Positions 11,394 through 22,756 of a stretch of DNA of 35,317 nucleotides are shown piece by piece. The stretch is from a virus. Under the pieces are notes generated by a model. The model saw only the letters and a program-made list of their open reading frames with translations, was not told the DNA's origin and ran no database searches. Where the stretch lies: positions 1-35,317 of IMG/VR virus record IMGVR_UViG_3300045988_121885; one strand, written 5' to 3'. Numbering within the stretch: position 1 is the stretch's first letter; each line of letters starts with the position of its first letter. The translations under genes were made by a program, and so were the position numbers.

Positions 11394-14300
11394 TTAATTT
11401 GCTCGTCTGCGATTAAGAATTGTGATAGAATTTTGCCGTTTTTTGAAAGATAAATATTTTTGAGCGTACATTGCTATCACATCTATACTATCATCATAGG
11501 CATTGTGCGCCGTATATGAAAACGAGGTAAGGTACTTCATAAACTTGCCAAACTCTGAACCTTGCGCATATATCCCAAATTCCGGGAATACAATAGAAGA
11601 CTTTATGACAGCTTCATTATCATATATTTTATCCTCTTTATGCTTATAGCTATATACTTCCGTAATATTACAATAATCTATACCTCTTTCGTAAAGCATA
11701 CCGCGCAATAGTGTGGCAAGGCTTGTATCAGTGTTGCGCTCTATGTGCAATCGCGTAATGTGGTGCTGCTCTATTTTACGAATTATAGTAGGATATATCT
11801 TTTCCATAGGCTTCATTTCAAATATACAGTCTTTGAGATAATGTTTATCGCCTATGGGCAGACAAATAGCCATTGCTATATAGTTTGCGCCGGTACGCGC
11901 AGGGTCAAGCATAGCCCAACAGCTTTCCTCGTCTTTTTCTTCCTCAATATGTGGTATAGCCTTATATGTTAATAGATTATCATAGCTAAAAGCACAACCC
12001 TCAATAGGCATAGGCTCTTGCATATCCATAGCCATAAAAGTATTATAGTCGGCAAGTCTGTCAGCCCGAGCTTCCTCTGTGGTGTATTTATGCGGATATG
12101 TGCTTTCGTCAGTGTCCCAGTCAAGTTTAGGAACAGACACGAAAACTGCCTTATGCTGAGCATTAAACTTTGTGTATTTATTGATTTTACTCTGTTTAGC
12201 CGTATCACCGCCATATTTGCGCTTTATCGTAGACAGAAAGTCATAAATATGGTAGGTAGTGCCACTGAAAACCTCAAAACTGTTATTATCGTCATATTTT
12301 CGCTTTTTCCACTGGTCTTGATACCGCTCTATATCTTTTTCGTGCATATTGATATTGCCCTTGTCTTTTGACCGTGTAATATCATCGTAAAAGCGATATT
12401 TATATCGTCCACCGTCCACAGGGGTGTCTTTATTTGCCAATAGGAACGATGTGCCTTTAATACTTCCGTGGATAAGCAAGCGTGCCACTTGATTATTGCC
12501 ACCCTCACGCCGAACATCAAATATTTTGTCCTTATCACCCTCAAATTGAGCATAATATGGGAAAACCTTAGCATAATTAGGCTTGCACATATATTTTACC
12601 AATTTTGCGGACATATCGGTTATCAATGAGGGATTTCCAACTATTTTTAATACATCTGCGTTTATATCTATGCCAAATATATAGGATATTAGAACGGTAT
12701 CGGCATAGCTATTATGTGATACTACACCATTTGCAATGAAATTGTGCGTTTCTTCAACTTCAATGTCAACCATATCCGTTAGAGTTTCGTCAAATTCTAT
12801 GCTTTTTATCTTTTGCCATACAAAGTCATTTGAGACAACATCTTTAAGCAAACCTGTTTTTTCTGAAAATTCGTCAATCCATTGTTTTTTAAAAGATGAA
12901 GTTTTCGCCCAAGATTTATTTTTTATTTTCTTCAACTCTTTGCAATGACAAACAACGCTTTTAGGATAGTTTACATTGTTTGAATATGGCGGCATACTCT
13001 TTGAAAACAACCATTCAACTCTGTTTTTCAGATTTTCTTGCTTATGATAACAATAACAGTTTTTGTATAATTTGTTTATGAACTCATCGGGTATTGTAAG
13101 ATTGTAACAATCAAATGTTTTGCCCTCACACTTGCTTTTTCTATGACAATAATAAGAGTATATGCCACAAGTGCTTAAAAGTCTTTGTATGTCTTGTATA
13201 AGCCCCTCGTTAGCAAGCGATATTCCACAAGGGCTTTCACCTTTATTTATCCAACCGTCAGTAGCAAACATTATGCCGATAAATTTATATCTTTGTTTTA
13301 AACTCATTTCAAAAAACTGTTTAGGCAGTCTTTTGGTATAAGACAAATGATTTATAACGCCATAACGGGTAAGAACATCTGCCACTTTGCCATTTGCACT
13401 GTGTATTCTCACTTCGTACGCTTTTGAGGGGTGAGAAACACTATATGTTACGCCCCATTTATCAAGCACCGAAATAAATCTATCCAAAATTTCGTTCTTT
13501 TCTTTGATAAATCTAAATCTTGCCTGTTTGCAATGCCCATCAAAAATCATACAAGTGACAAAAAACAGTTCGTCTTCGTCAATTTCATAGCCATAATTCA
13601 ATGGCGAGCAGATTTCAAAAAGATAATCGCTAATGGTTATATCTTTACACATTTTATAACCTTTGTCGGTGTACAATCTATGCTCGGGACTGCAAATTAT
13701 CTCTTTGCCATTATTAAGCCTAATTTTGATTTGCTTTTTTTCTGTATTCCATTTATTCGTTATTCGCCTTACGACAGGTTTGTTTTCTTTCATAGAATAC
13801 ACAAAATCGCCAATATTAACATTTTTGATAGGTTTATAACCCTGTGTGGTTAAAATAGGCGTATCAGCTTTTAGGCACTTTCCATACCCGACTGGGCATT
13901 GTTTTTCAAGGTATTTCACAGTGCCGTCAAGCACCATTTTATCAGCATAATACCAAAATCCCTTAAAACAATTAAGGTTATATTTCCATACCTTGTCATT
14001 TTCAGGCATACCCCACTCCATATAAAGCGCAAAGTGTTCTATGTTGCGGAAAGCCGACAAAGCGTAAAAATTCTCGTACAATTTGCCGTATTCAGTATAA
14101 TTCTCTTGTAATTTCAGCAGCCGAGCCCTGTTTTCCTCGGTGAATTTCTCTTTTTTGAGTTTATCAGCCAAAACAGCCATTTTTTTCAGTTTATCACGCA
14201 ATGTAGGCAAAACAAATTTGCAGACATACTCAATATGCTTGCGGATTTCGTCCTCGCCCTCGTTATCACGCAACTGTGCCAAATAACCGTGTATCTGCGA

Positions 14301-14429
14301 ATGCATAGTGCGATATAAATTATCGCTGACAGCTAAAACATACTCGTCACTGTCTAAATACTTTGCATTTTTGCGCATTTCGCTAAATGCAACACAGCCT
14401 TCACGAACAATCTCGCCGATATTATCCAT
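11394..14429 (-). CDS. terL: Terminase large subunit precursor (622-aa extein plus 389-aa intein)
   Basis: The Walker A motif PVGYGK|S is split by the intein. Walker-B-like YRFYDDI, and nuclease-type acidic motifs AMLDPARTG and AYDDSIDVIAMY. Lies upstream of portal. RBS GGAGGTG 6 nt before the ATG. Confidence 0.9.
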   Translation of the reverse strand: MDNIGEIVREGCVAFSEMRKNAKYLDSDEYVLAVSDNLYRTMHSQIHGYLAQLRDNEGEDEIRKHIEYVCKFVLPTLRDKLKKMAVLADKLKKEKFTEENRARLLKLQENYTEYGKLYENFYALSAFRNIEHFALYMEWGMPENDKVWKYNLNCFKGFWYYADKMVLDGTVKYLEKQCPVGYGKCLKADTPILTTQGYKPIKNVNIGDFVYSMKENKPVVRRITNKWNTEKKQIKIRLNNGKEIICSPEHRLYTDKGYKMCKDITISDYLFEICSPLNYGYEIDEDELFFVTCMIFDGHCKQARFRFIKEKNEILDRFISVLDKWGVTYSVSHPSKAYEVRIHSANGKVADVLTRYGVINHLSYTKRLPKQFFEMSLKQRYKFIGIMFATDGWINKGESPCGISLANEGLIQDIQRLLSTCGIYSYYCHRKSKCEGKTFDCYNLTIPDEFINKLYKNCYCYHKQENLKNRVEWLFSKSMPPYSNNVNYPKSVVCHCKELKKIKNKSWAKTSSFKKQWIDEFSEKTGLLKDVVSNDFVWQKIKSIEFDETLTDMVDIEVEETHNFIANGVVSHNSYADTVLISYIFGIDINADVLKIVGNPSLITDMSAKLVKYMCKPNYAKVFPYYAQFEGDKDKIFDVRREGGNNQVARLLIHGSIKGTSFLLANKDTPVDGGRYKYRFYDDITRSKDKGNINMHEKDIERYQDQWKKRKYDDNNSFEVFSGTTYHIYDFLSTIKRKYGGDTAKQSKINKYTKFNAQHKAVFVSVPKLDWDTDESTYPHKYTTEEARADRLADYNTFMAMDMQEPMPIEGCAFSYDNLLTYKAIPHIEEEKDEESCWAMLDPARTGANYIAMAICLPIGDKHYLKDCIFEMKPMEKIYPTIIRKIEQHHITRLHIERNTDTSLATLLRGMLYERGIDYCNITEVYSYKHKEDKIYDNEAVIKSSIVFPEFGIYAQGSEFGKFMKYLTSFSYTAHNAYDDSIDVIAMYAQKYLSFKKRQNSITILNRRRAN
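12711..13877 (-). mobile_element. Class-1 intein with nested LAGLIDADG homing endonuclease, inserted in the terL P-loop
   Basis: - Cys1 (codon 13877-13875) follows GYGK.
- Block A CLKADTPILT; block B ICSPEHRLYT.
- LAGLIDADG-type motifs LFFVTCMIFDGHC and YKFIGIMFATDGWI.
- Blocks F/G MVDIEVEETHNFIANGVVSHN, with terminal Asn at codon 12713-12711 and +1 Ser.
- Removing the intein restores GYGKSYADTV. Confidence 0.9.
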
Positions 14430-14690: not shown

Positions 14691-14719
14691 ATTATATCAT
14701 ATCCATTATTCTTTGTCAA
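14691..14719 (-). promoter_or_regulatory. Promoter P1: TTGACA-17-TGaTATAAT, overlapping the 3' end of the 95-aa gene
   Basis: Minus strand: gagcTTGACAaagaataatggatatgaTATAATggc. Perfect hexamers plus an extended -10. Confidence 0.6.
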
Positions 14720-14993
14720 GCTCTAACAAAAACGCAACATTGCAAGCAATATGATACAAGTGCGGCAAGCCACTATCCTCATCAACCCCGTGTGGCTCTT
14801 TCAGCCATTTGCATATGTGCCGCATTAAAGCCGCTCTGTATCGCTTAGGGTCGACATTCTTATAACTGCCCTCGCCATATTTTTCAGCACCATGTGTCAT
14901 AACAACGCCCACAGCCTCTATTATCTCCGCAGGCACTAAATCCAACCTCGGCTTGCCACCGTCGTGCTTTAATCCGTCTGTAACAACATCCAT
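14706..14993 (-). CDS. Small nucleotide pyrophosphohydrolase-like protein (DUF5664 / dATP-dGTP diphosphohydrolase N-domain-like)
   Basis: Pattern KHDGGKPRLDLVP...GAEKYG...YRAALMRHICKW...DEDSGLPHLYHIACNVAFLLE matches my memory of that phage family. RBS GAGAGGTGG 7 nt upstream. Confidence 0.55.
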   Translation of the reverse strand: MDVVTDGLKHDGGKPRLDLVPAEIIEAVGVVMTHGAEKYGEGSYKNVDPKRYRAALMRHICKWLKEPHGVDEDSGLPHLYHIACNVAFLLELDKE

Positions 14994-15037: not shown

Positions 15038-15067
15038 ATTATAGCACCCCGTCCCGGCGCTTGTCAA
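15038..15067 (-). promoter_or_regulatory. Promoter P0: TTGACA-18-TGcTATAAT for the 95-aa gene
   Basis: Minus strand: gggTTGACAagcgccgggacggggtgcTATAATggcgg. Confidence 0.6.
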
Positions 15068-15341
15068 CCCTTGCATAAATTCTGCATTTTTATTCATTTT
15101 CTATGCACAAGCCGGCAAAAAACAACTTTGTAAATTTTTAAAATTCGGGGGGGTAACCCGACCGCTGGCTGACCTTTTCGGAATAGGGTTCGGGGTGGTT
15201 TTCGTTCCGTGAACGCCTTTAAATAAAACGTTTTTGTGTTACAAATACGAACGATAAAGAAACAAACGCACATTTTAAACCCGCTTTATCAATTTAGCAC
15301 TTTATCGTGTTAAAGTTGATAGGTTTACTCCCTTTTATTTT

Positions 15342-15383
15342 TTTATACTTTTCTTTTATTTTTAGTTTATACTTTTCTTTTAT
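15342..15383. repeat. Two 18-bp direct repeats (tttatacttttcttttat) with 24-bp period
   Basis: Copies at 15342-15359 and 15366-15383, read directly, within an AT-rich non-coding stretch. Confidence 0.85.
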
Positions 15384-15480: not shown

Positions 15481-15492
15481 TAAATAGGCATA
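15481..15492. repeat. Left arm of the 12-bp inverted repeat TAAATAGGCATA bracketing the plus-strand cassette
   Basis: Its exact reverse complement TATGCCTATTTA lies at 17323-17334. Confidence 0.8.
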
Positions 15493-15524
15493 TAAAAATA
15501 TTTATTTGAAGATTAAAATTTTAC

Positions 15525-15553
15525 TTGACAATTATATAATATAGTGATATAAT
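15525..15553 (+). promoter_or_regulatory. Consensus sigma-A promoter TTGACA-17-TGaTATAAT for the plus-strand cassette
   Basis: Plus strand: ttacTTGACAattatataatatagtgaTATAATaaag, with an AT-rich UP-like tract upstream. Confidence 0.75.
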
Positions 15554-15586
15554 AAAGACAACGAAAGGAAAGGAGAAAAAAACAAG

Positions 15587-15703
15587 ATGAAAACGGAAGA
15601 TATTAAAAATTTGTTGCATTTGGTTGTTGAACTTCTAAAACGGTGTAAAACGGTCGACGAAGCTATAAAAGCAATCTGCAACGCTTACGACATCCACGAA
15701 TAA
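15587..15703 (+). CDS. Possible 38-aa leader ORF (MKTEDIKNLLHLVVELLKRCKTVDEAIKAICNAYDIHE)
   Basis: ATG lies 11 nt after AGGAG, which is a long spacing. Two short GC hairpins follow (15714-15745). It is below the ORF-track cut-off and may be a non-coding leader instead. Confidence 0.35.
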   Translation: MKTEDIKNLLHLVVELLKRCKTVDEAIKAICNAYDIHE

Positions 15704-15778
15704 CAAACGCCGAGCCGGGCGGCATAACCCGGCAGCCTTCGGGCTTGTTAATTAAAATAAATAAAAGAGGTTTTAAAA

Positions 15779-16165
15779 ATGAAAACAAACAACAAAAAAG
15801 CGCGCGAGAACATACGCAAATATGTTATTGCAAACTTTACCCCGGAGGGCTACACGGACAACCCGCCGCAGGAGTTCCCCGAAATAGCCCGCTTTATTTT
15901 ATCCACTTTCAGAAATGAAAAATACAGCACCCCGGAAGACTTCCATTATTATCGAAATAACGAGCTTGTAGCGTTCGCGGATTGGTGCGCGGGGCTTTGC
16001 GGTGTTCTCGATACTTGTTATTTTTATAACCGTTACGCCGTTGATGACCTCGGCGCAATTCTTAAAGAAACAGAAGAAGAAAAAGCGCGCTATACAGAAG
16101 AACAAGCCGAAAATACATTAACTTTTTTAATTTATCGCGAGTTAATAAAAGGGGCTACAGAATAA
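15779..16165 (+). CDS. Hypothetical 128-aa protein, first substantial gene of the plus-strand cassette
   Basis: RBS AAGAGG 8 nt upstream. Its stop overlaps the next start (ATAATG). No motif recognised. Confidence 0.7.
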   Translation: MKTNNKKARENIRKYVIANFTPEGYTDNPPQEFPEIARFILSTFRNEKYSTPEDFHYYRNNELVAFADWCAGLCGVLDTCYFYNRYAVDDLGAILKETEEEKARYTEEQAENTLTFLIYRELIKGATE

Positions 16166-17157
16166 TGTATAACGGCGAACAATTGGCGCAGGCGCTGACC
16201 GTTTTCGGTCTGCCCTGCGTTTTTAAAGAAATGAAACAAACCCCACGAAATACAATATATTATTTTGATTTTACGGACTGGAACAAAGTCACAGCGGGCA
16301 GGCGCAAAACAGCACTTGACCGTCTTTCACTATATGCCGAACATCAATTTAATTATATTGACAGTAATATATCACATTTTGCAATATATCACGCTGAAGA
16401 CAATTATAGTATTGTCCCGCTTTTCGAACTTGCCTTGCCTGCTGATGATACATATAAATTCATCGCGGGCATAAACGAGGACGGCGGACAAGTCAATATT
16501 TCATTAGACGGAATGACGCATGCATTAATTGCAGGTACTACCGGCAGCGGTAAAAGCGTATTTTTGAAAAGCTTTTTATATTCTTTATTGACTACCAATA
16601 GCCCGAATAAAGTAAAATGTGCTATTATAGATAAAAAACGCAGTTTGAATTATTGGAGCAGGGCGGCGCACTGTCTCAAAGTCGTTAATGATGATATTTC
16701 GGCAATAACTTTATTAAATACTTTTCAAAAAGAAATGTATAACCGATATGAAGAATTGCGGCGGCGAGGACTTGAAAAAAATATCGGGTTGTTTCCTAAG
16801 TGGGTATTGATAATTGATGAATTGGCGGATTTAATGCTGACCGAGCGCAAAACAGAAATTGAAAGTAAACTTGTTTCGCTTTGTCAGCTCGGGCGCGCTG
16901 CTGGTATTCATTGCATATTATGCACCCAGTCGCCCCGCGTTGCCGTTGTCAGTGGTTTAATTCAGGCAAATACCCCGACAAAGATTATATTTAAAACAGC
17001 GAACACGCGGGAAAGCGTGTTGTGTTTGGGTCATTCGGGAGCGGAAAAGCTGCTCGGGAATGGTGACTGCCTTATAAAACTTCCCGATAAAGTAAAAGAT
17101 ATTAGAGTACAAACGCCATTTGCAACTGATGAAGATTTCAGAAACTGTATAGAATAG
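16165..17157 (+). CDS. FtsK/SpoIIIE-family ATPase (motor domain only, no TM or gamma domain)
   Basis: Walker A LIAGTTGSGKSVFL, Walker B WVLIIDELADLM, then LGRAAGIHCILCTQSPRVAVVSGLIQANTPTKIIFKTANTRESVLCLG...GNGDCLI. This is the canonical order of FtsK motor motifs. Confidence 0.85.
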   Translation: MYNGEQLAQALTVFGLPCVFKEMKQTPRNTIYYFDFTDWNKVTAGRRKTALDRLSLYAEHQFNYIDSNISHFAIYHAEDNYSIVPLFELALPADDTYKFIAGINEDGGQVNISLDGMTHALIAGTTGSGKSVFLKSFLYSLLTTNSPNKVKCAIIDKKRSLNYWSRAAHCLKVVNDDISAITLLNTFQKEMYNRYEELRRRGLEKNIGLFPKWVLIIDELADLMLTERKTEIESKLVSLCQLGRAAGIHCILCTQSPRVAVVSGLIQANTPTKIIFKTANTRESVLCLGHSGAEKLLGNGDCLIKLPDKVKDIRVQTPFATDEDFRNCIE

Positions 17158-17168
17158 AGGTATAAAAA

Positions 17169-17285
17169 ATGATTTTTAGTGTTTTAGCTTATATTTTGGC
17201 AGTCGGTATTGGTTGTATATTCTTTGAGTGTACGAAAACAGGGCAGAAGCTATCCGATAAAATCTATAAGAAAATAATAAAATAA
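17169..17285 (+). CDS. 38-aa membrane peptide (MIFSVLAYILAVGIGCIFFECTKTGQKLSDKIYKKIIK)
   Basis: RBS AGAGG 8 nt upstream. Hydrophobic N-terminus and basic C-terminus. Followed directly by a terminator. Confidence 0.5.
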   Translation: MIFSVLAYILAVGIGCIFFECTKTGQKLSDKIYKKIIK

Positions 17286-17293
17286 TGCTTTTG

Positions 17294-17323
17294 ACCGTCC
17301 GCGGCTCGTGGGCGGTTCTTTTT
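17294..17323 (+). terminator. Intrinsic terminator closing the plus-strand cassette
   Basis: ACCGTCCGC ggctc GTGGGCGGT (9 bp including wobbles) followed by TCTTTTT. Confidence 0.6.
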
Positions 17324-17334
17324 ATGCCTATTTA
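17323..17334. repeat. Right arm of the 12-bp inverted repeat (TATGCCTATTTA)
   Basis: Reverse complement of 15481-15492. It overlaps the terminator T-tract. Confidence 0.8.
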
Positions 17335-17450: not shown

Positions 17451-17491
17451 GCAAAAAGAAACTGCCGAAAGTGTTTTTAAACTCTCGACAG
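17451..17491 (-). terminator. Intrinsic terminator after the recombinase operon (weaker on the plus strand)
   Basis: Minus strand: CTGTCGAGAGTttaaaaacACTTTCGGCAGTTTCTTTTTGC. The stem is 11 bp with two G-U pairs. Confidence 0.7.
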
Positions 17492-17497
17492 TCTTTT

Positions 17498-17968
17498 TTA
17501 TTGTTCCGATGTGGCTTGTAGTTCGGCTTGCAGTCTCTCAAATACTGCTTGCCGGCTGATGTGATGTCTTCTTGCTATTTCCGATATATCGCCCCATATC
17601 GCTTTACCCTCTCTACGCATAAGAGCGGCTTTTTTTATTTCCTCGCATAGTTCCGCTTTTGGCGGTCGGGTTTTAATATTACAATAAGCATTTAAAGTAT
17701 ATCTCACATTATACCGAGATATATTTAATTTATGGGCTATCATATCAACATTATGCAGTCCGCTTTCCCACAAGGCTTTTATTTGCTCCTTGTTGGCTGT
17801 GCCGTCGTCGCTTACCGCTCTGCCTCGCCTTATTATTCCGCCGTTCGCCTTTATGGTATTGACAACATAATATCGCGATACTCCTACAATATCGGCGGTT
17901 CTTGTTACGGTATAGCCCTTATAATAACACATCATAATGTCGTCAATTTGATTTTGCGATAATTTCAT
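17498..17968 (-). CDS. DNA-binding protein with three HTH-like units
   Basis: HTH-like segments are GYTVTRTADIVGVSRYYVVNTIK, HNVDMIAHKLNISRYNVRYTL and ISEIARRHHISRQAVFERL. ATGA overlap with the upstream gene. Confidence 0.6.
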   Translation of the reverse strand: MKLSQNQIDDIMMCYYKGYTVTRTADIVGVSRYYVVNTIKANGGIIRRGRAVSDDGTANKEQIKALWESGLHNVDMIAHKLNISRYNVRYTLNAYCNIKTRPPKAELCEEIKKAALMRREGKAIWGDISEIARRHHISRQAVFERLQAELQATSEQ

Positions 17969-18228
17969 TCGTTGCCCTCATTGTTTGCAAAGTGATATCT
18001 TTCGTTTAATTCTACGGCGGTACGAGCGCAGTCGGCATATTTAGTATATATTTTTATTTGGTCGCTTAATGCCATTTTGTCTGCATTTTCTATACATTTT
18101 GTTAAAGTTTTACTTGCTCCGCGTATATAAGTCAGCAAATTTAAATACTCGTCCAACATTGCATTTATAATTATTTGCCGCTCTAAAAGTGTCTCATACA
18201 GTTCCTTGTAGTCAATTTCATTATCCAT
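17965..18228 (-). CDS. Hypothetical 87-aa helical protein
   Basis: The start is moved to MDNEIDYKELY (ATG at 18228-18226), 9 nt after GGGGG. The TTG start in the ORF track lacks an RBS. Confidence 0.55.
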   Translation of the reverse strand: MDNEIDYKELYETLLERQIIINAMLDEYLNLLTYIRGASKTLTKCIENADKMALSDQIKIYTKYADCARTAVELNERYHFANNEGNE

Positions 18229-18301
18229 TGTTTTTGCCCCCTGAATTTGTTTCGCCGTAATCTTCAAGCCAGTAAACGCCTATAACCGTATTCCGCCCAT
18301 A

Positions 18302-19087: not shown

Positions 19088-19132
19088 AGCCTATAATATA
19101 TTACTTTTCTAACCGCAATTATATTATAAGCC
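19088..19132. repeat. Imperfect dyad aGCcTATAATATA (19 bp) TATATTATAaGCc over the recombinase promoter and leader
   Basis: Perfect 9-bp arms at 19092-19100 and 19120-19128. The right arm overlaps the -10 box. Confidence 0.7.
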
Positions 19133-19151
19133 TTTATGTAACATTTGTCAA
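19123..19151 (-). promoter_or_regulatory. Consensus promoter TTGACA-17-TATAAT for the recombinase operon
   Basis: Minus strand: ttgcTTGACAaatgttacataaaggctTATAATataatt. Confidence 0.7.
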
Positions 19152-19167
19152 GCAAAATATTTAATCT

Positions 19168-19338
19168 TTAAATGATTATTTCCAATAAAAAATAGGCAAA
19201 GGCAAAATCAACCATTGCTTGTGATAGAAAAAATGCCGTAATATAAGCGGGCGCTTTAGTCTTAAAGCCCATTACAGATAATGCCAAGCCCATAATGCCT
19301 ATTGTTATGCCAAATATAGCTAATATTGTTTTAAGCAT
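19168..19338 (-). CDS. 56-aa two-TM membrane protein
   Basis: Hand translation: MLKTILAIFGITIGIMGLALSVMGFKTKAPAYITAFFLSQAMVDFAFAYFLLEIII. The ATG lies 1 nt after the TerS-like stop. Below the ORF-track cut-off. Confidence 0.5.
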   Translation of the reverse strand: MLKTILAIFGITIGIMGLALSVMGFKTKAPAYITAFFLSQAMVDFAFAYFLLEIII

Positions 19339-21799: not shown

Positions 21800-22756
21800 C
21801 TACCAAATGCCGTCATCGTTGTACTCGCCACCACCGATACAATATTCGTACTGCCGAGGATGTGTCTTCTTTAATCGTAACCAACGGCTTTCCTTTTCAA
21901 GGTGACACCCAAATCCGCAAAACATACACCCCGTGCGCTTGCACCCTGTTGTAGTCAGTTTCCCGTTGCAGTCCTCAAACATGGGCTGTTGCTCAAATAT
22001 TTCGTTCCCTGGCTTGATTATTTTGGATTCATCAACAATATCGCCGTAAACGCTTGCTATTGACAGGCTGTCCCGCTTTATGTACTGAAGAACATCCTGC
22101 TCTGTCCAAAAGGACATGGGCTTGCTCATAGGGCGTTTACTGTCGAAAGCATTACAGCCCGTTTTTAGCCAAGCATCAGTTCTGCGGTTACTCTCTTCAG
22201 CCAAGAGAGCTATAATTGGTTTTTTCTCCTTTTCCTTTTGGCGAATGGGCTTTTCCTTCATTTCGAGACAGCACCAATTTGATATGTTAAAATCGACATT
22301 TAGAAGAGGCGCATATTTAACATAACGCTTCCGAAATTGAGAAGGCTCACCATTTGTTTTCAAACCTTTTATTTTCTTGAGCCCAAATTCCGCCCCCTTT
22401 TTGCCATAATAAATCGTTTCCGCCACATCCTTGCTAATTATCGGATACCCGTATTTTTTGATAACCTCGTCAAATCTCATTTTGGGGTGAAGAATTGTAA
22501 CATTCTCAAAGGTTTTTACAAACTTCCGAATTTCGGGATATTCCAATCCCGTGTCAACGAAAACCGCCTCTATATTCGGATACAACTCTCGGACAATATG
22601 GAGCAACACCGTGCTGTCCTTGCCGCCCGAAAAGCTCACATAAACGCCGTCTGTGCCGTACTCCTTTACCCATTCTCGGATACGCGTTTTAGTCATCCCG
22701 ACCTTTACTTCAAGTGGCATAGCTTGAAAATATTTCAAATCTTCTCTTGAAGGCAA
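21800..22756 (-). CDS. PAPS-reductase / PP-loop ATPase family protein with a C-terminal Cys cluster
   Basis: PP-loop VSFSGGKDSTVLLH. C-terminal TGCKRTGCMFCGFGCHLE. TTG start 7 nt after GGGAGGG. Confidence 0.8.
   Translation of the reverse strand: MPSREDLKYFQAMPLEVKVGMTKTRIREWVKEYGTDGVYVSFSGGKDSTVLLHIVRELYPNIEAVFVDTGLEYPEIRKFVKTFENVTILHPKMRFDEVIKKYGYPIISKDVAETIYYGKKGAEFGLKKIKGLKTNGEPSQFRKRYVKYAPLLNVDFNISNWCCLEMKEKPIRQKEKEKKPIIALLAEESNRRTDAWLKTGCNAFDSKRPMSKPMSFWTEQDVLQYIKRDSLSIASVYGDIVDESKIIKPGNEIFEQQPMFEDCNGKLTTTGCKRTGCMFCGFGCHLEKESRWLRLKKTHPRQYEYCIGGGEYNDDGIW

What the first reader, a model, noticed from the sequence alone, without database searches (positions are those of the whole stretch)
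15525..17323. Self-contained opposite-strand cassette (consensus promoter, 128-aa unknown, FtsK/SpoIIIE-like ATPase, 38-aa membrane peptide, terminator): candidate exclusion, defence or partition system
This is the only plus-strand transcription unit in the genome. It has a perfect TTGACA-17-TGaTATAAT promoter, a ~220-nt leader (possible 38-aa ORF plus two GC hairpins), two translationally coupled genes, a tiny TM peptide and its own terminator. That is moron architecture.

The 330-aa ATPase has the complete FtsK motor motif set but no membrane anchor and no gamma (KOPS-reading) domain. It has an unrecognised ~110-aa N-terminal domain. I do not recognise the 128-aa partner.

A soluble dsDNA-translocase-like ATPase expressed independently of the lytic programme could act in several ways:
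- superinfection exclusion or defence, pumping or stripping incoming DNA;
- plasmid-like segregation or dimer handling together with the neighbouring resolvase;
- DNA transfer.
I do not know of a described system with this gene trio.
Basis: partly seen in the sequence, partly recalled or inferred. Interest (0 to 1): 0.7.

Follow-up and report, generated by a model that had tools for sequence, protein, structure and literature searches.

The report
Phage FtsK motor cassette, swappable cargo
A gut-Clostridia phage carries a self-contained reverse-strand operon whose conserved core is a stripped-down FtsK DNA-pumping motor plus a 38-residue membrane peptide, while the 128-residue 'partner' is only one of several interchangeable cargo genes; its role is untested but it most likely acts in conflicts between mobile elements.

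Summary
It comprises a consensus promoter, a 38-aa leader gene, a 128-aa gene, a 330-aa ATPase, a 38-aa membrane peptide and a strong terminator. It is the only + strand unit in the window.

I make three corrections.
- The ATPase has no unknown N-terminal domain. All 330 residues form an FtsK alpha+beta motor (AF2 pLDDT 93; TM 0.89 to FtsK 6t8b). It has no membrane anchor and no gamma domain.
- The 128-aa protein is not a dedicated partner. It belongs to a large uncharacterised phage family (628 clusters at 50% identity). That family lies near the small-terminase gene without any FtsK in about 70% of 50 related phages. In close relatives it is replaced or reduced to a 31-aa stump.
- The parts conserved across this lineage (FtsK 46-99% identical) are the promoter, FtsK, the membrane peptide and the terminator, with a variable cargo slot between promoter and FtsK. 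The unit converges on an HTH/small-terminase-position gene.

The closest non-phage FtsK homologues (68% identical) pair with a RES NADase-family protein that elsewhere sits in restriction-modification/defence-type operons.

Function is inferred only. The likeliest role is a membrane-tethered DNA translocase in an inter-element conflict module. It is a new variant of the known but unstudied phage FtsK/SpoIIIE-like accessory genes. Interest is moderate.

The parts
15525..15553 (+). Sigma-70/sigma-A consensus promoter: TTGACA, 17-nt spacer, TG, TATAAT.
   Evidence: It scores 12/12 with TG. It is conserved in L056 and L062, and a similar 'cttgacaa...tgatataat' promoter heads the cassettes of L156, L157 and L158. 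The ~30 nt upstream of the -35 box closely resemble the resolvase promoter at 19123-19181 on the - strand.
15587..15703 (+). lead38, a 38-aa leader gene. It is probably a real small protein and is specific to this lineage.
   Evidence: The ORF has a GGAG ribosome-binding site. It is 92-97% identical in L005-8 and L056. Substitutions by codon position are 19/2/34, with 35 synonymous against 15 non-synonymous codon changes. It has no family match.
15707..15743 (+). GC-rich hairpin region in the leader, directly before the ribosome-binding site of the first cargo gene.
   Evidence: The fold has an energy of -21.5 kcal/mol with z = -1.5, which is not exceptional. It is invariant in L056 and L062. 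A related GCCGAGCCGGGCGGC...CCCGGC element is in the L158 leader. There is no Rfam match.
15779..16165 (+). P128, a 128-aa acidic, all-helical protein of unknown function. It occupies the variable cargo slot.
   Evidence: - It has no Pfam, NCBIfam, PADLOC or PDB match.
- It matches phrog_11100 (unknown function) at 4.8e-6.
- The family has 628 clusters at 50% identity.
- It sits between terS and resolvase/terL in 50 viral loci, with FtsK in only 10.
- It is replaced in L056 and is a 31-aa remnant in L157.
- Its pI is 4.9.
- The AF2 model is poor, with pLDDT 57.
16165..17157 (+). A minimal FtsK alpha+beta dsDNA-translocase motor of 330 aa, with no membrane domain, linker or gamma domain.
   Evidence: - PF01580 matches at 5e-29.
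- A family profile aligns over positions 10-336 to E. coli FtsK 2ius residues 52-418, E = 7e-88.
- The AF2 model has pLDDT 93.3.
- Foldseek matches 6t8b_C with TMq 0.89 and rmsd 2.5.
- Walker A G124-K130, Walker B D218/E219, R244 and Q255 are invariant in 53 homologues.
- The maximum 19-residue hydropathy is 1.37, so there is no transmembrane segment.
17169..17285 (+). tm38, a 38-aa single-pass membrane peptide with a basic amphipathic tail. It is the conserved companion of this FtsK lineage.
   Evidence: It has a GAGGT ribosome-binding site 8 nt upstream. Peptides of similar length and layout (N-terminal hydrophobic helix, basic tail) follow FtsK in L062, L152, L156 and L157, and one lies upstream of FtsK in L158, where FtsK identity falls to 46%. 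No such peptide occurs in the more distant FtsK lineages.
17293..17317 (+). Intrinsic terminator of the cassette.
   Evidence: It has an 11-bp stem with 7 GC pairs and a T-run. Equivalent GC hairpins with T-runs follow the membrane peptide (L152, L156, L157) or the last cassette ORF (L158).
17459..17968 (-). Convergent neighbour: a 156-aa multi-HTH protein with its own terminator (17494-17459). It holds the position that the small terminase holds in related phages.
   Evidence: HTH_7 matches at 1.4e-9 and the terminator is. The same HTH_7 / HTH_39 / Resolvase gene set converges on FtsK in L062, L156 and L157; L158 has an HTH gene plus Resolvase without HTH_39, and in L152 the equivalent genes are present but not contiguous. 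Homology to GP3_package TerS is not shown; hhalign probability is 25%.
15481..15492 (.). Left arm of a 12-nt inverted repeat (TAAATAGGCATA). The right arm is at 17323-17334. The two arms bracket the cassette exactly. Significance is doubtful.
   Evidence: Each arm occurs once in the window. Both arms are kept in L005-7 but not in L008, L056 or more distant lineages. By my estimate, about two such pairs are expected by chance in 5 kb.

Best explanation
**Shown: anatomy and evolution**
- The cassette is an autonomous operon in a hypervariable slot between the packaging-gene region (small-terminase position) and the large terminase. The phages are siphovirus-type phages of gut Clostridia (Oscillospirales/Lachnospiraceae).
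- Its conserved core has four parts: a host-type consensus promoter, a minimal FtsK alpha+beta hexameric dsDNA-translocase motor, a ~38-aa single-pass membrane peptide, and an intrinsic terminator.
- Between the promoter/leader platform and FtsK lies a slot whose genes are exchanged by recombination. The exchange points are exactly at the first start codon and at the last ~10 codons before the FtsK ribosome-binding site. In this window the slot holds the 128-aa gene, so that gene is cargo, not an obligate partner.

**Inferred: mechanism**
- The motor forms a hexamer on duplex DNA and uses ATP to pump DNA or strip proteins, as FtsK does.
- It has no gamma domain, so it cannot read polarity sequences or activate XerD. 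It has no membrane domain of its own, so the co-encoded peptide plausibly tethers it to the membrane in trans.
- The likeliest role is in conflict between mobile elements. This could be excluding or disabling incoming or competing DNA at the membrane (superinfection exclusion/defence), with the slot genes as interchangeable payloads or modulators.
For: **Motor identity and integrity:**

**Independent unit:**

**Conserved architecture in this lineage (FtsK 46-99% identical)**
- In L062, L152, L156, L157 and L158, variable genes precede FtsK, and a hydrophobic ~38-aa peptide of the same layout follows it (it lies upstream in L158).
- The unit converges on an HTH_7-type gene, with an HTH_39 gene (absent in L158) and Resolvase on the same strand beyond it.

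**Wider position conservation**
- In 23 of the 24 FtsK-bearing viral loci that also hold a GP3_package small terminase, FtsK ends a + strand block convergent with terS.

**Cargo exchange**
- The leader platform is identical up to the ATG in the window, L062 and L056, and a different gene follows in each.
- L157 keeps only a P128 remnant.
- Upstream genes share no homology.
- The P128 block is 89% identical between L025 and L027, while the flanks are 70-74% identical and inverted.

**Conflict context**
- FtsK homologues 68% identical sit next to a 302-316-aa RES-domain protein at the edges of integrated elements. One such locus lies beside a large serine recombinase and WYL, dynamin-like and DUF87 genes.
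- In three other sampled contexts that RES family is embedded in Type I R-M or SNF2-DUF4391-methylase operons.
- FtsK-clade ATPase domains occur in the Ssp, Dnd and MADS defence systems (PMC10853773).
- Effector plus HerA/FtsK-superfamily hexamer is an established defence design, as in DUF4297-HerA (PMC11291478) and Sir2-HerA (PMC11514289).

**Dispensability**
- FtsK is absent from all 34 related loci in which the P128 block is co-directional with the lytic genes. It is therefore accessory, not core.
Against: - There is no experimental or expression evidence.
- No PADLOC system matches, and no recognisable effector (nuclease, NADase) is in this window's cassette.
- Lysogeny is not shown for this phage. 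No integrase or repressor was found in the window, and equally strong promoters precede lytic genes. Expression in a lysogen is therefore an assumption.
- The peptide-as-tether idea rests only on co-occurrence. The peptide could instead be a small toxin or regulator.
- The strictly conserved position next to the small-terminase gene, and frequent neighbouring recombinases, would also fit a role in the phage's own DNA handling.
- The RES pairing is in other genomes, not in this window.
Confidence: 0.4

Rival explanations
1. The motor serves the phage's own DNA metabolism. The gamma-less FtsK would process replicated phage DNA near the packaging step, for example by clearing proteins, resolving or positioning concatemers, or helping the neighbouring small serine (or tyrosine) recombinase resolve multimers.
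For: - FtsK converges on the small-terminase gene in 23 of 24 loci.
- A resolvase lies in or beside the conserved neighbourhood.
- In L111, L117, L142 and L145 the gene directly after FtsK belongs to one family; its L117 member is a ~195-aa Phage_integrase tyrosine recombinase, echoing FtsK-XerCD.
- A similar idea was proposed for B. cereus-group phages, without a test (PMC3335513).
Against: - The gamma domain that activates XerD and reads KOPS is absent.
- FtsK is missing from about 80% of the related P128-bearing viral loci; most of these have TerL, TerS and/or resolvase homologues of the same families within the surveyed flank, so it is dispensable.
- It is transcribed against the lytic genes as an insulated unit.
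- The resolvase is present regardless of whether FtsK is.
Confidence: 0.2
2. The cassette is an early counter-defence or host-takeover operon. A host-type promoter fires on DNA entry. The motor strips host nucleoid or defence proteins (R-M, SMC-like complexes) from phage DNA, and the slot carries interchangeable anti-defence proteins.
For: - The cassette has a consensus host-type promoter.
- The slot is hypervariable among near-identical phages, as is typical of anti-defence loci.
- Several cargo proteins are strongly acidic: P128 net charge -6, L152_79 -12, L156_148 -20, L156_212 -32. This is reminiscent of DNA mimics.
- PHROGs file phage FtsK-like proteins under 'moron, auxiliary metabolic gene and host takeover'.
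Against: - Other cargo proteins are basic.
- No cargo protein matches a known anti-defence family.
- The RES-FtsK pairing in bacterial elements points to defence rather than counter-defence.
- This reading gives the membrane peptide no obvious role.
Confidence: 0.2
3. The protein is a DNA-transfer motor like the conjugative FtsK-type proteins (Streptomyces TraB, Clostridium TcpA). It would move phage or other DNA between cells or cell compartments, for example into the forespore of a sporulating host.
For: - TcpA is the second-best structural match, with TM 0.65 (6o1w at 1.6e-13).
- Many FtsK-type plasmid proteins exist.
- The hosts belong to gut Clostridia lineages; members of such lineages can form spores (my general knowledge, not tested here).
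Against: - It is far closer to FtsK proper (TM 0.89, alpha domain present) than to TcpA.
- It has no transmembrane segments.
- No relaxase, T4SS or clt-type repeat was seen in the window.
- Plasmid relatives are at most about 33% identical over the full length (up to ~41% locally). One inspected example sits in a dnd-like operon, not a transfer module.
Confidence: 0.05
4. The unit is an invertible or mobile segment driven by the neighbouring small serine recombinase.
For: - The P128 block occurs in both orientations relative to terS and terL, with several switches on the P128 tree.
- A resolvase/invertase is adjacent (phrog_125, 1.6e-57).
- A 12-nt inverted repeat brackets the cassette.
- A ~59-nt imperfect inverted repeat links the cassette promoter and the resolvase promoter.
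Against: - No consistent inverted repeats flank the block in 12 other opposite-strand loci.
- The 12-nt repeat is lost in L008, L056 and more distant lineages.
- All close relatives share one orientation.
- The long inverted repeat is simply two similar promoters.
Confidence: 0.05

Closest known systems
Cellular FtsK/SpoIIIE DNA translocases (E. coli / P. aeruginosa FtsK motor; PDB 2ius, 2iuu, 6t8b)
   Same: It shares the alpha+beta motor fold over the whole 330 aa (TMq 0.89, rmsd 2.5 A). The Walker A, Walker B, arginine and sensor motifs are invariant. It includes the FtsK-alpha domain, which PMC10853773 reports only in the cellular FtsK clade and its derivatives.
   Different: It has no N-terminal membrane domain, no linker and no gamma winged-helix domain, so there is no KOPS/SRS reading and no XerD activation. 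It is encoded by a phage in a variable accessory operon with a separate 38-aa membrane peptide.
Phage FtsK/SpoIIIE-like accessory proteins (PHROG 1358 and 3551; B. cereus-group temperate phages such as phIS3501 p50; mycobacteriophage cluster J, e.g. Thibault gp178)
   Same: It is a phage-borne FtsK-family ATPase outside the packaging module, filed as a moron, with no experimentally known role (PMC3335513).
   Different: Identity is only 30-41%. This lineage is the bare alpha+beta motor. It has a fixed position convergent with the small-terminase-position gene, a conserved membrane micro-peptide and a cargo-exchange slot. None of these features was mentioned in the papers I read.
Effector + HerA/FtsK-superfamily hexamer defence systems (Sir2-HerA, DUF4297-HerA) and 'HerA/FtsK capture' systems (DndH, SspH, MADS mad8)
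   Same: It is a two-gene design with a variable upstream gene followed by a hexameric pumping ATPase. Its ATPase domain matches SspH at 1.8e-39 and mad8 at 4.6e-24. Close homologues pair with a RES NADase-family protein, which parallels Sir2 (NADase) plus HerA.
   Different: - It has the FtsK alpha domain where HerA has its HAS domain (PMC11291478).
- None of the partner proteins of those systems is present.
- The upstream gene here is dispensable.
- PADLOC recognises no system.
Conjugative FtsK-like coupling proteins (TcpA of pCW3; Streptomyces TraB)
   Same: It has a related ATPase fold (TM 0.65 to TcpA; NF041214 TraB at 5e-4).
   Different: It has no transmembrane helices and no C-terminal DNA-recognition domain. 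There are no transfer genes nearby. It is much closer to FtsK proper.

Membership tests
FtsK/SpoIIIE family ATPase (PF01580; FtsK-HerA superfamily) | P-loop motor domain with Walker A, Walker B, arginine finger and sensor glutamine | tested here: met
   PF01580 scores 101.8 bits against a cut-off of 24. G124-K130, D218/E219, R244 and Q255 are invariant in 53 homologues.
FtsK/SpoIIIE family ATPase (PF01580; FtsK-HerA superfamily) | Alpha+beta motor fold as in solved FtsK structures | tested here: met
   The AF2 model has pLDDT 93.3. Foldseek matches 6t8b_C with TMq 0.89. The family profile aligns from position 10 to 336 with 2ius.
Cellular chromosome-segregation FtsK/SpoIIIE | N-terminal membrane domain that targets the septum | tested here: not met
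   The protein starts in the alpha domain. The maximum 19-residue hydropathy is 1.37.
Cellular chromosome-segregation FtsK/SpoIIIE | C-terminal gamma winged-helix domain (KOPS/SRS reading, XerD activation) | tested here: not met
   The protein ends at the end of the beta domain, at 2ius residue 418.
Conjugative coupling protein (TcpA / Tn916 Orf21 type) or Streptomyces TraB | Transmembrane anchor, plus association with a relaxase/T4SS or clt repeats | tested here: not met
   There is no transmembrane segment. No transfer genes appear among the window proteins scanned. TraB and TraD models score far below their cut-offs.
Type VII secretion EssC/EccC | Membrane protein with three tandem FtsK-like ATPase domains | tested here: not met
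   There is a single ATPase domain. The NCBIfam EssC/EccC scores of 46-75 bits fall far below the cut-offs of 347-778. TM to EccC is about 0.62.
Sir2-HerA / DUF4297-HerA defence systems | HerA ATPase with a HAS domain, plus a Sir2 or DUF4297 effector gene | tested here: not met
   Only local P-loop matches to the HerA models are found (7e-9 and weaker). No Sir2 or DUF4297 is in the cassette.
SspFGH / DndFGH / MADS defence systems | A large multidomain SspH/DndH protein, or the mad1-8 gene set, around the FtsK-like domain | tested here: not met
   Only the C-terminal ATPase part of SspH (model positions 1538-1760) and mad8 match. The partner genes are absent from the cassette.
Moron (autonomous accessory transcription unit in a phage genome) | Own promoter and terminator, placed between conserved genes, present in some relatives and absent in others | tested here: met
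   The promoter and terminator are present. FtsK is present in 10 of 15 opposite-strand loci and in 0 of 34 co-directional loci. The cargo genes are swapped.
Moron (autonomous accessory transcription unit in a phage genome) | Expression from the prophage, independent of lytic genes | not testable with these tools
   This needs RNA-seq of a lysogen. No integrase was found in the window.
Serine-invertase-controlled invertible segment (Gin/Hin type) | Conserved inverted crossover sites flanking the segment, and both orientations within one phage population | tested here: not met
   There are no consistent inverted repeats in 12 other loci. Close relatives all share one orientation.

The most novel reading that the evidence does not exclude
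The FtsK alpha+beta motor and its ~38-aa membrane peptide form a 'split' membrane-tethered DNA pump. That pump would be the core of an undescribed family of conflict systems with a plug-in effector slot. Phage versions would carry small cargo proteins such as P128. Chromosomal or integrated-element versions would carry a RES NADase. The result would be an FtsK-based analogue of Sir2-HerA that senses or expels invading DNA at the membrane.
Probability: 0.2. Interest if true: 0.75.

Novelty: new variant of a known kind. Interest (0 to 1): 0.45.

Why it matters
Phage-encoded FtsK/SpoIIIE-like genes are common. tblastn at E<=1e-5 finds them in 395 GenBank phage records, and two PHROG families cover them. 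PHROGs file them only as morons, and a 2012 study of a B. cereus-group phage stated that their role had not been studied experimentally.

This lineage offers a compact, 1.8-kb, naturally dissected case.
- It is a bare motor with intact catalytic motifs.
- It has a conserved micro-peptide companion.
- Natural variants have the upstream gene swapped, deleted or replaced by a RES toxin-family protein.

That makes the question 'what does a phage do with a DNA pump?' directly testable. It could reveal either a new exclusion/defence design or a new step in phage DNA handling.

The work also defines a large uncharacterised phage protein family, P128, with 628 clusters at 50% identity. In the 50 viral loci surveyed here it lies close to the small-terminase gene.

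Tried and rejected
1. **P128 as an obligate FtsK partner: rejected.** It occurs without FtsK in most loci, is replaced in L056 and is a remnant in L157.
2. **Unknown N-terminal domain of the ATPase: rejected.** It is the FtsK alpha domain.
3. **Invertible segment driven by the resolvase: not supported.** The 59-nt inverted repeat is two similar promoters.
4. **Structure-based annotation of P128: failed.** The AF2 model has pLDDT 57 from a shallow alignment, and Foldseek gave nothing below E = 1.7. Both AF2 jobs were then spent. A deep profile of 140 representatives hit no Pfam or PDB family.
5. **Leader as a riboswitch or attenuator: no support.** There is no Rfam match and the fold is not exceptional.
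6. **Membrane peptide as a general companion of phage FtsK: not general.** It is found only in this lineage, not in more distant FtsK loci.
7. **The 156-aa HTH protein as a GP3-type small terminase: homology not shown.** hhalign probability is 25%, so it is only a positional analogue.
8. **Shared domain among the variable upstream genes: none found**.
9. **JGI metagenome scan for the RES protein: found nothing**. The protein search found 32 clusters instead.
10. **Literature search for a tested function of phage FtsK-like proteins: none found**.


Full report
**1. The observation**

The window is almost wholly coded on the - strand. It carries a SPP1-type portal, a T7-type large terminase interrupted by an intein, a RecT-like protein, an ERCC4 nuclease, a PAPS-reductase-like protein and an amidase.

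The one exception is 15525-17317.
- A perfect TTGACA-17-TG-TATAAT promoter.
- A 38-aa ORF.
- A GC hairpin region.
- A 128-aa ORF whose TAA overlaps the ATG of a 330-aa ORF.
- A 38-aa hydrophobic ORF.
- A terminator with an 11-bp stem that ranks first in two of the three scans and second in the third.

GC skew turns positive across this stretch, and only weakly at about 33.5-34.5 kb, where the long ORF is on the - strand. All other promoter matches of 11-12/12 are on the - strand.

Two caveats apply. Equally perfect promoters precede - strand lytic genes, including the large terminase and portal. Promoter quality therefore says nothing about expression outside the lytic programme. The leader hairpin is not exceptional (z = -1.5) and matches no Rfam family.

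**2. The ATPase**

The 330-aa protein matches FtsK_SpoIIIE (5e-29), phrog_1358 'FtsK/SpoIIIE-like protein' (2e-56) and solved FtsK motors.
- A profile of 53 homologues aligns from position 10 to the end with E. coli FtsK residues 52-418 (E = 7e-88).
- The AF2 model is confident (pLDDT 93.3).
- The model superposes on the translocating FtsK hexamer subunit 6t8b_C with TM 0.89 and rmsd 2.5 A over the whole chain.

The Walker A, Walker B, arginine and sensor residues are invariant. There is no hydrophobic segment. The chain stops where gamma would begin.

According to PMC10853773, the alpha domain is found only in the cellular FtsK clade and versions derived from it. This places the phage protein in that clade and not with HerA, TraB or the coupling proteins. 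TcpA (TM 0.65) and EccC (about 0.62) are clearly more distant.

**3. The 128-aa protein**

It has no Pfam, NCBIfam, PADLOC or PDB match. It hits only a weak unknown-function PHROG and no GenBank phage record.

It nevertheless belongs to a large family. There are 664 clusters at 90% identity and 628 at 50% identity. Nearly all members are stand-alone proteins of 120-140 aa. None of 140 representatives hits a Pfam family convincingly. The protein is acidic (pI 4.9) and predicted to be all-helical. The model is poor (pLDDT 57) and the fold search gave nothing.

**4. Comparative anatomy**

*P128 loci.* In 50 viral contigs that carry P128, the gene always lies between a GP3_package small terminase and a small serine recombinase and large terminase.
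- In 34 loci it is co-directional with these genes, and none of these has FtsK.
- In 15 loci the P128 block is on the opposite strand and converges on terS. Ten of these end with an FtsK gene.
- The FtsK genes fall into two lineages only 32% identical to each other.

MAGs of Ruminococcus, Acutalibacteraceae, Fimenecus and Faecousia carry P128 homologues, all in the opposite-strand layout. A Lachnospiraceae MAG (L148) gave a tblastn hit, but no P128 ORF was called there. The Ruminococcus locus, and the L064 relative, lie inside contigs of 250-534 kb, which suggests integrated prophages.

*FtsK loci.* Starting from FtsK instead, I examined 78 viral loci with relatives 30-47% identical. In 23 of the 24 that also hold a terS homologue, FtsK closes a + strand block of variable small genes and converges on terS. 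A resolvase sits on the far side in 6 of these 23.

*This window's own lineage (FtsK 46-99% identical).* The relatives are L005-8, L056, L062, L152, L156, L157 and L158. The constant parts are:
- the consensus promoter;
- FtsK;
- a ~38-aa peptide with one N-terminal hydrophobic helix and a basic tail, similar in length and layout among L152, L156, L157 and L158 (in L158 it lies upstream of FtsK);
- a GC-hairpin terminator;
- a convergent HTH_7-type gene, with a resolvase and usually an HTH_39 gene on the same strand beyond it.

The genes between promoter and FtsK differ in every lineage and share no homology.
- The window, L062 and L056 are more than 90% identical through the promoter, lead38, the hairpin and the ribosome-binding site. 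They then diverge exactly at the ATG into P128, a 77-aa gene followed by P128, or an unrelated 145-aa gene.
- L157 keeps only a 31-aa fusion of the first ~20 and last ~10 P128 codons, still coupled to FtsK.
- L156's unrelated 212-aa gene ends with the same '...EKG..' junction.
- The P128 block of L025 is 89% identical to that of L027, while the flanks are 70-74% identical and inverted.

P128 is therefore exchangeable cargo. The pairing that is actually conserved is FtsK with the membrane peptide.

lead38 shows a clear coding signature (substitutions by codon position 19/2/34) but is confined to close relatives.

**5. Context outside phages**

FtsK homologues 64-68% identical lie directly downstream of a 302-316-aa RES-domain protein, in two different genomic settings at the edges of integrated elements. 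One of these loci sits beside a large serine recombinase and WYL, dynamin-like and DUF87 genes.

That RES family has 32 clusters. In three other sampled contexts it is embedded in Type I R-M operons or SNF2-DUF4391-methylase-helicase operons. NCBI names one member 'RES family NAD+ phosphorylase'. The pair is not in PADLOC.

Plasmid relatives of the phage FtsK are at most about 33% identical over the full length, and up to about 41% locally. One inspected example sits in a dndC-dndD-FtsK-TusA operon.

**6. How it most likely works**

*Shown.* The cassette is an insulated operon with a catalytically intact alpha+beta FtsK motor. The motor lacks the two elements that give cellular FtsK its address (the membrane domain) and its direction and XerD control (gamma). 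A membrane micro-peptide companion is conserved. There is a cargo slot. The unit is accessory, because many sister phages lack it.

*Inferred.* The motor hexamerises on duplex DNA and pumps it or strips proteins. The peptide tethers it to the membrane in trans. The module acts in conflicts between mobile elements. Several observations favour this reading:
- the arms-race-like turnover of the slot;
- the defence-associated RES partner of close homologues;
- the repeated recruitment of HerA/FtsK ATPases by defence systems (PMC10853773, PMC11291478).

I put this at about 0.4.

*Rivals.*
- A role in the phage's own DNA handling near packaging or recombination (0.2). The conserved terS adjacency and neighbouring recombinases support it. 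Dispensability and the missing gamma domain count against it.
- An early counter-defence operon (0.2). Some acidic cargo proteins and the host-type promoter support it.
- A DNA-transfer motor (0.05).
- A recombinase-driven invertible or mobile segment (0.05). No consistent flanking repeats were found.

**7. Comparison with what is known, and novelty**

Phage FtsK/SpoIIIE-like genes are known and annotated (PHROG 1358 and 3551; 395 GenBank phage records). A 2012 paper on B. cereus-group phages says the module's role 'was not yet experimentally studied' (PMC3335513). I found no later functional test.

The cassette is a member of the FtsK family by every motor criterion. It fails the defining features of cellular FtsK (anchor, gamma), the coupling proteins, EssC, HerA systems and Ssp/Dnd/MADS.

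It is best described as a new variant of a known kind. It is a bare alpha+beta motor with a trans membrane peptide and a cargo-exchange slot, fixed at the terS-terL junction of gut Clostridia phages.

That condition is not met.

Interest is moderate (0.45). The find is not surprising in kind, but it gives an unusually clean and testable handle on an open question.

Noticed in passing
window 11394-14429 (- strand): The large terminase is 1011 aa because it carries an intein with a LAGLIDADG homing-endonuclease domain (Intein_splicing 5.5e-18, LAGLIDADG_3 3e-6). Relatives have 552-776-aa versions, and the 776-aa one has a smaller intein.
   Followed up: partly
window 14706-14993 (- strand); also L001, L062, L064: A 95-aa protein matches the dATP/dGTP diphosphohydrolase N-terminal domain (MazZ-like, 2e-26). 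A PAPS-reductase/DndC-like gene lies at 21800-22756, and relatives carry DNA methylases. This hints at a modified-nucleotide or DNA-modification pathway. I did not look for PurZ.
   Followed up: no
window 15496-15554 and 19122-19181: The cassette promoter and the resolvase-operon promoter share about 30 nt of near-identical sequence upstream of the -35 box (ATTTrAAGATTAAA(T)ATTTTrCTTGACAA). They form a 59-nt imperfect inverted repeat around two convergent units. This may be a shared UP element or operator. The other perfect promoters lack it.
   Followed up: partly
window 15335-15382: Two tandem 24-nt direct repeats (TTATTTTTTTATACTTTTCTTTTA / TTTTTAGTTTATACTTTTCTTTTA) lie in the AT-rich region between the - strand promoter at 15067 and the cassette promoter. 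Their function is unknown.
   Followed up: no
window 17971-18261 (- strand ORF 17965-18267, 100 aa): This stretch lies between the HTH_7 and HTH_39 genes and has no DNA match in five otherwise ~92-96% identical relatives (L005, L006, L008, L056, L062). It looks like a small gene insertion.
   Followed up: no
L002 9042-11005; L153 4968-6937 (Clostridia MAG and metagenome contigs): A RES-domain (NADase-family) protein of 302-316 aa sits directly upstream of an FtsK alpha+beta gene 68% identical to the phage's, at the edges of integrated elements. The same RES family also sits inside Type I R-M and SNF2-DUF4391-methylase operons. This is a candidate undescribed two-gene conflict system and is not in PADLOC.
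   Followed up: partly
L111, L117, L142, L145 (viral contigs): In another phage group the gene co-directionally following a 416-446-aa FtsK relative belongs to one family. Its L117 member is a ~195-aa tyrosine recombinase (Phage_integrase 4.6e-20). The pairing is reminiscent of FtsK-Xer.
   Followed up: no
L157 5909-6004: A 31-aa ORF is an internal-deletion remnant of P128: the first ~20 residues joined to the last ~10. It is still translationally coupled to FtsK. This is a natural experiment showing that P128 is dispensable in that phage.
   Followed up: yes
L159 (Aureimonas plasmid pAU20f, 24826-26349): An annotated 'DNA translocase FtsK' lies inside a dndC / small protein / dndD / FtsK / TusA operon. 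This example links FtsK-type motors to DNA phosphorothioation machinery.
   Followed up: no
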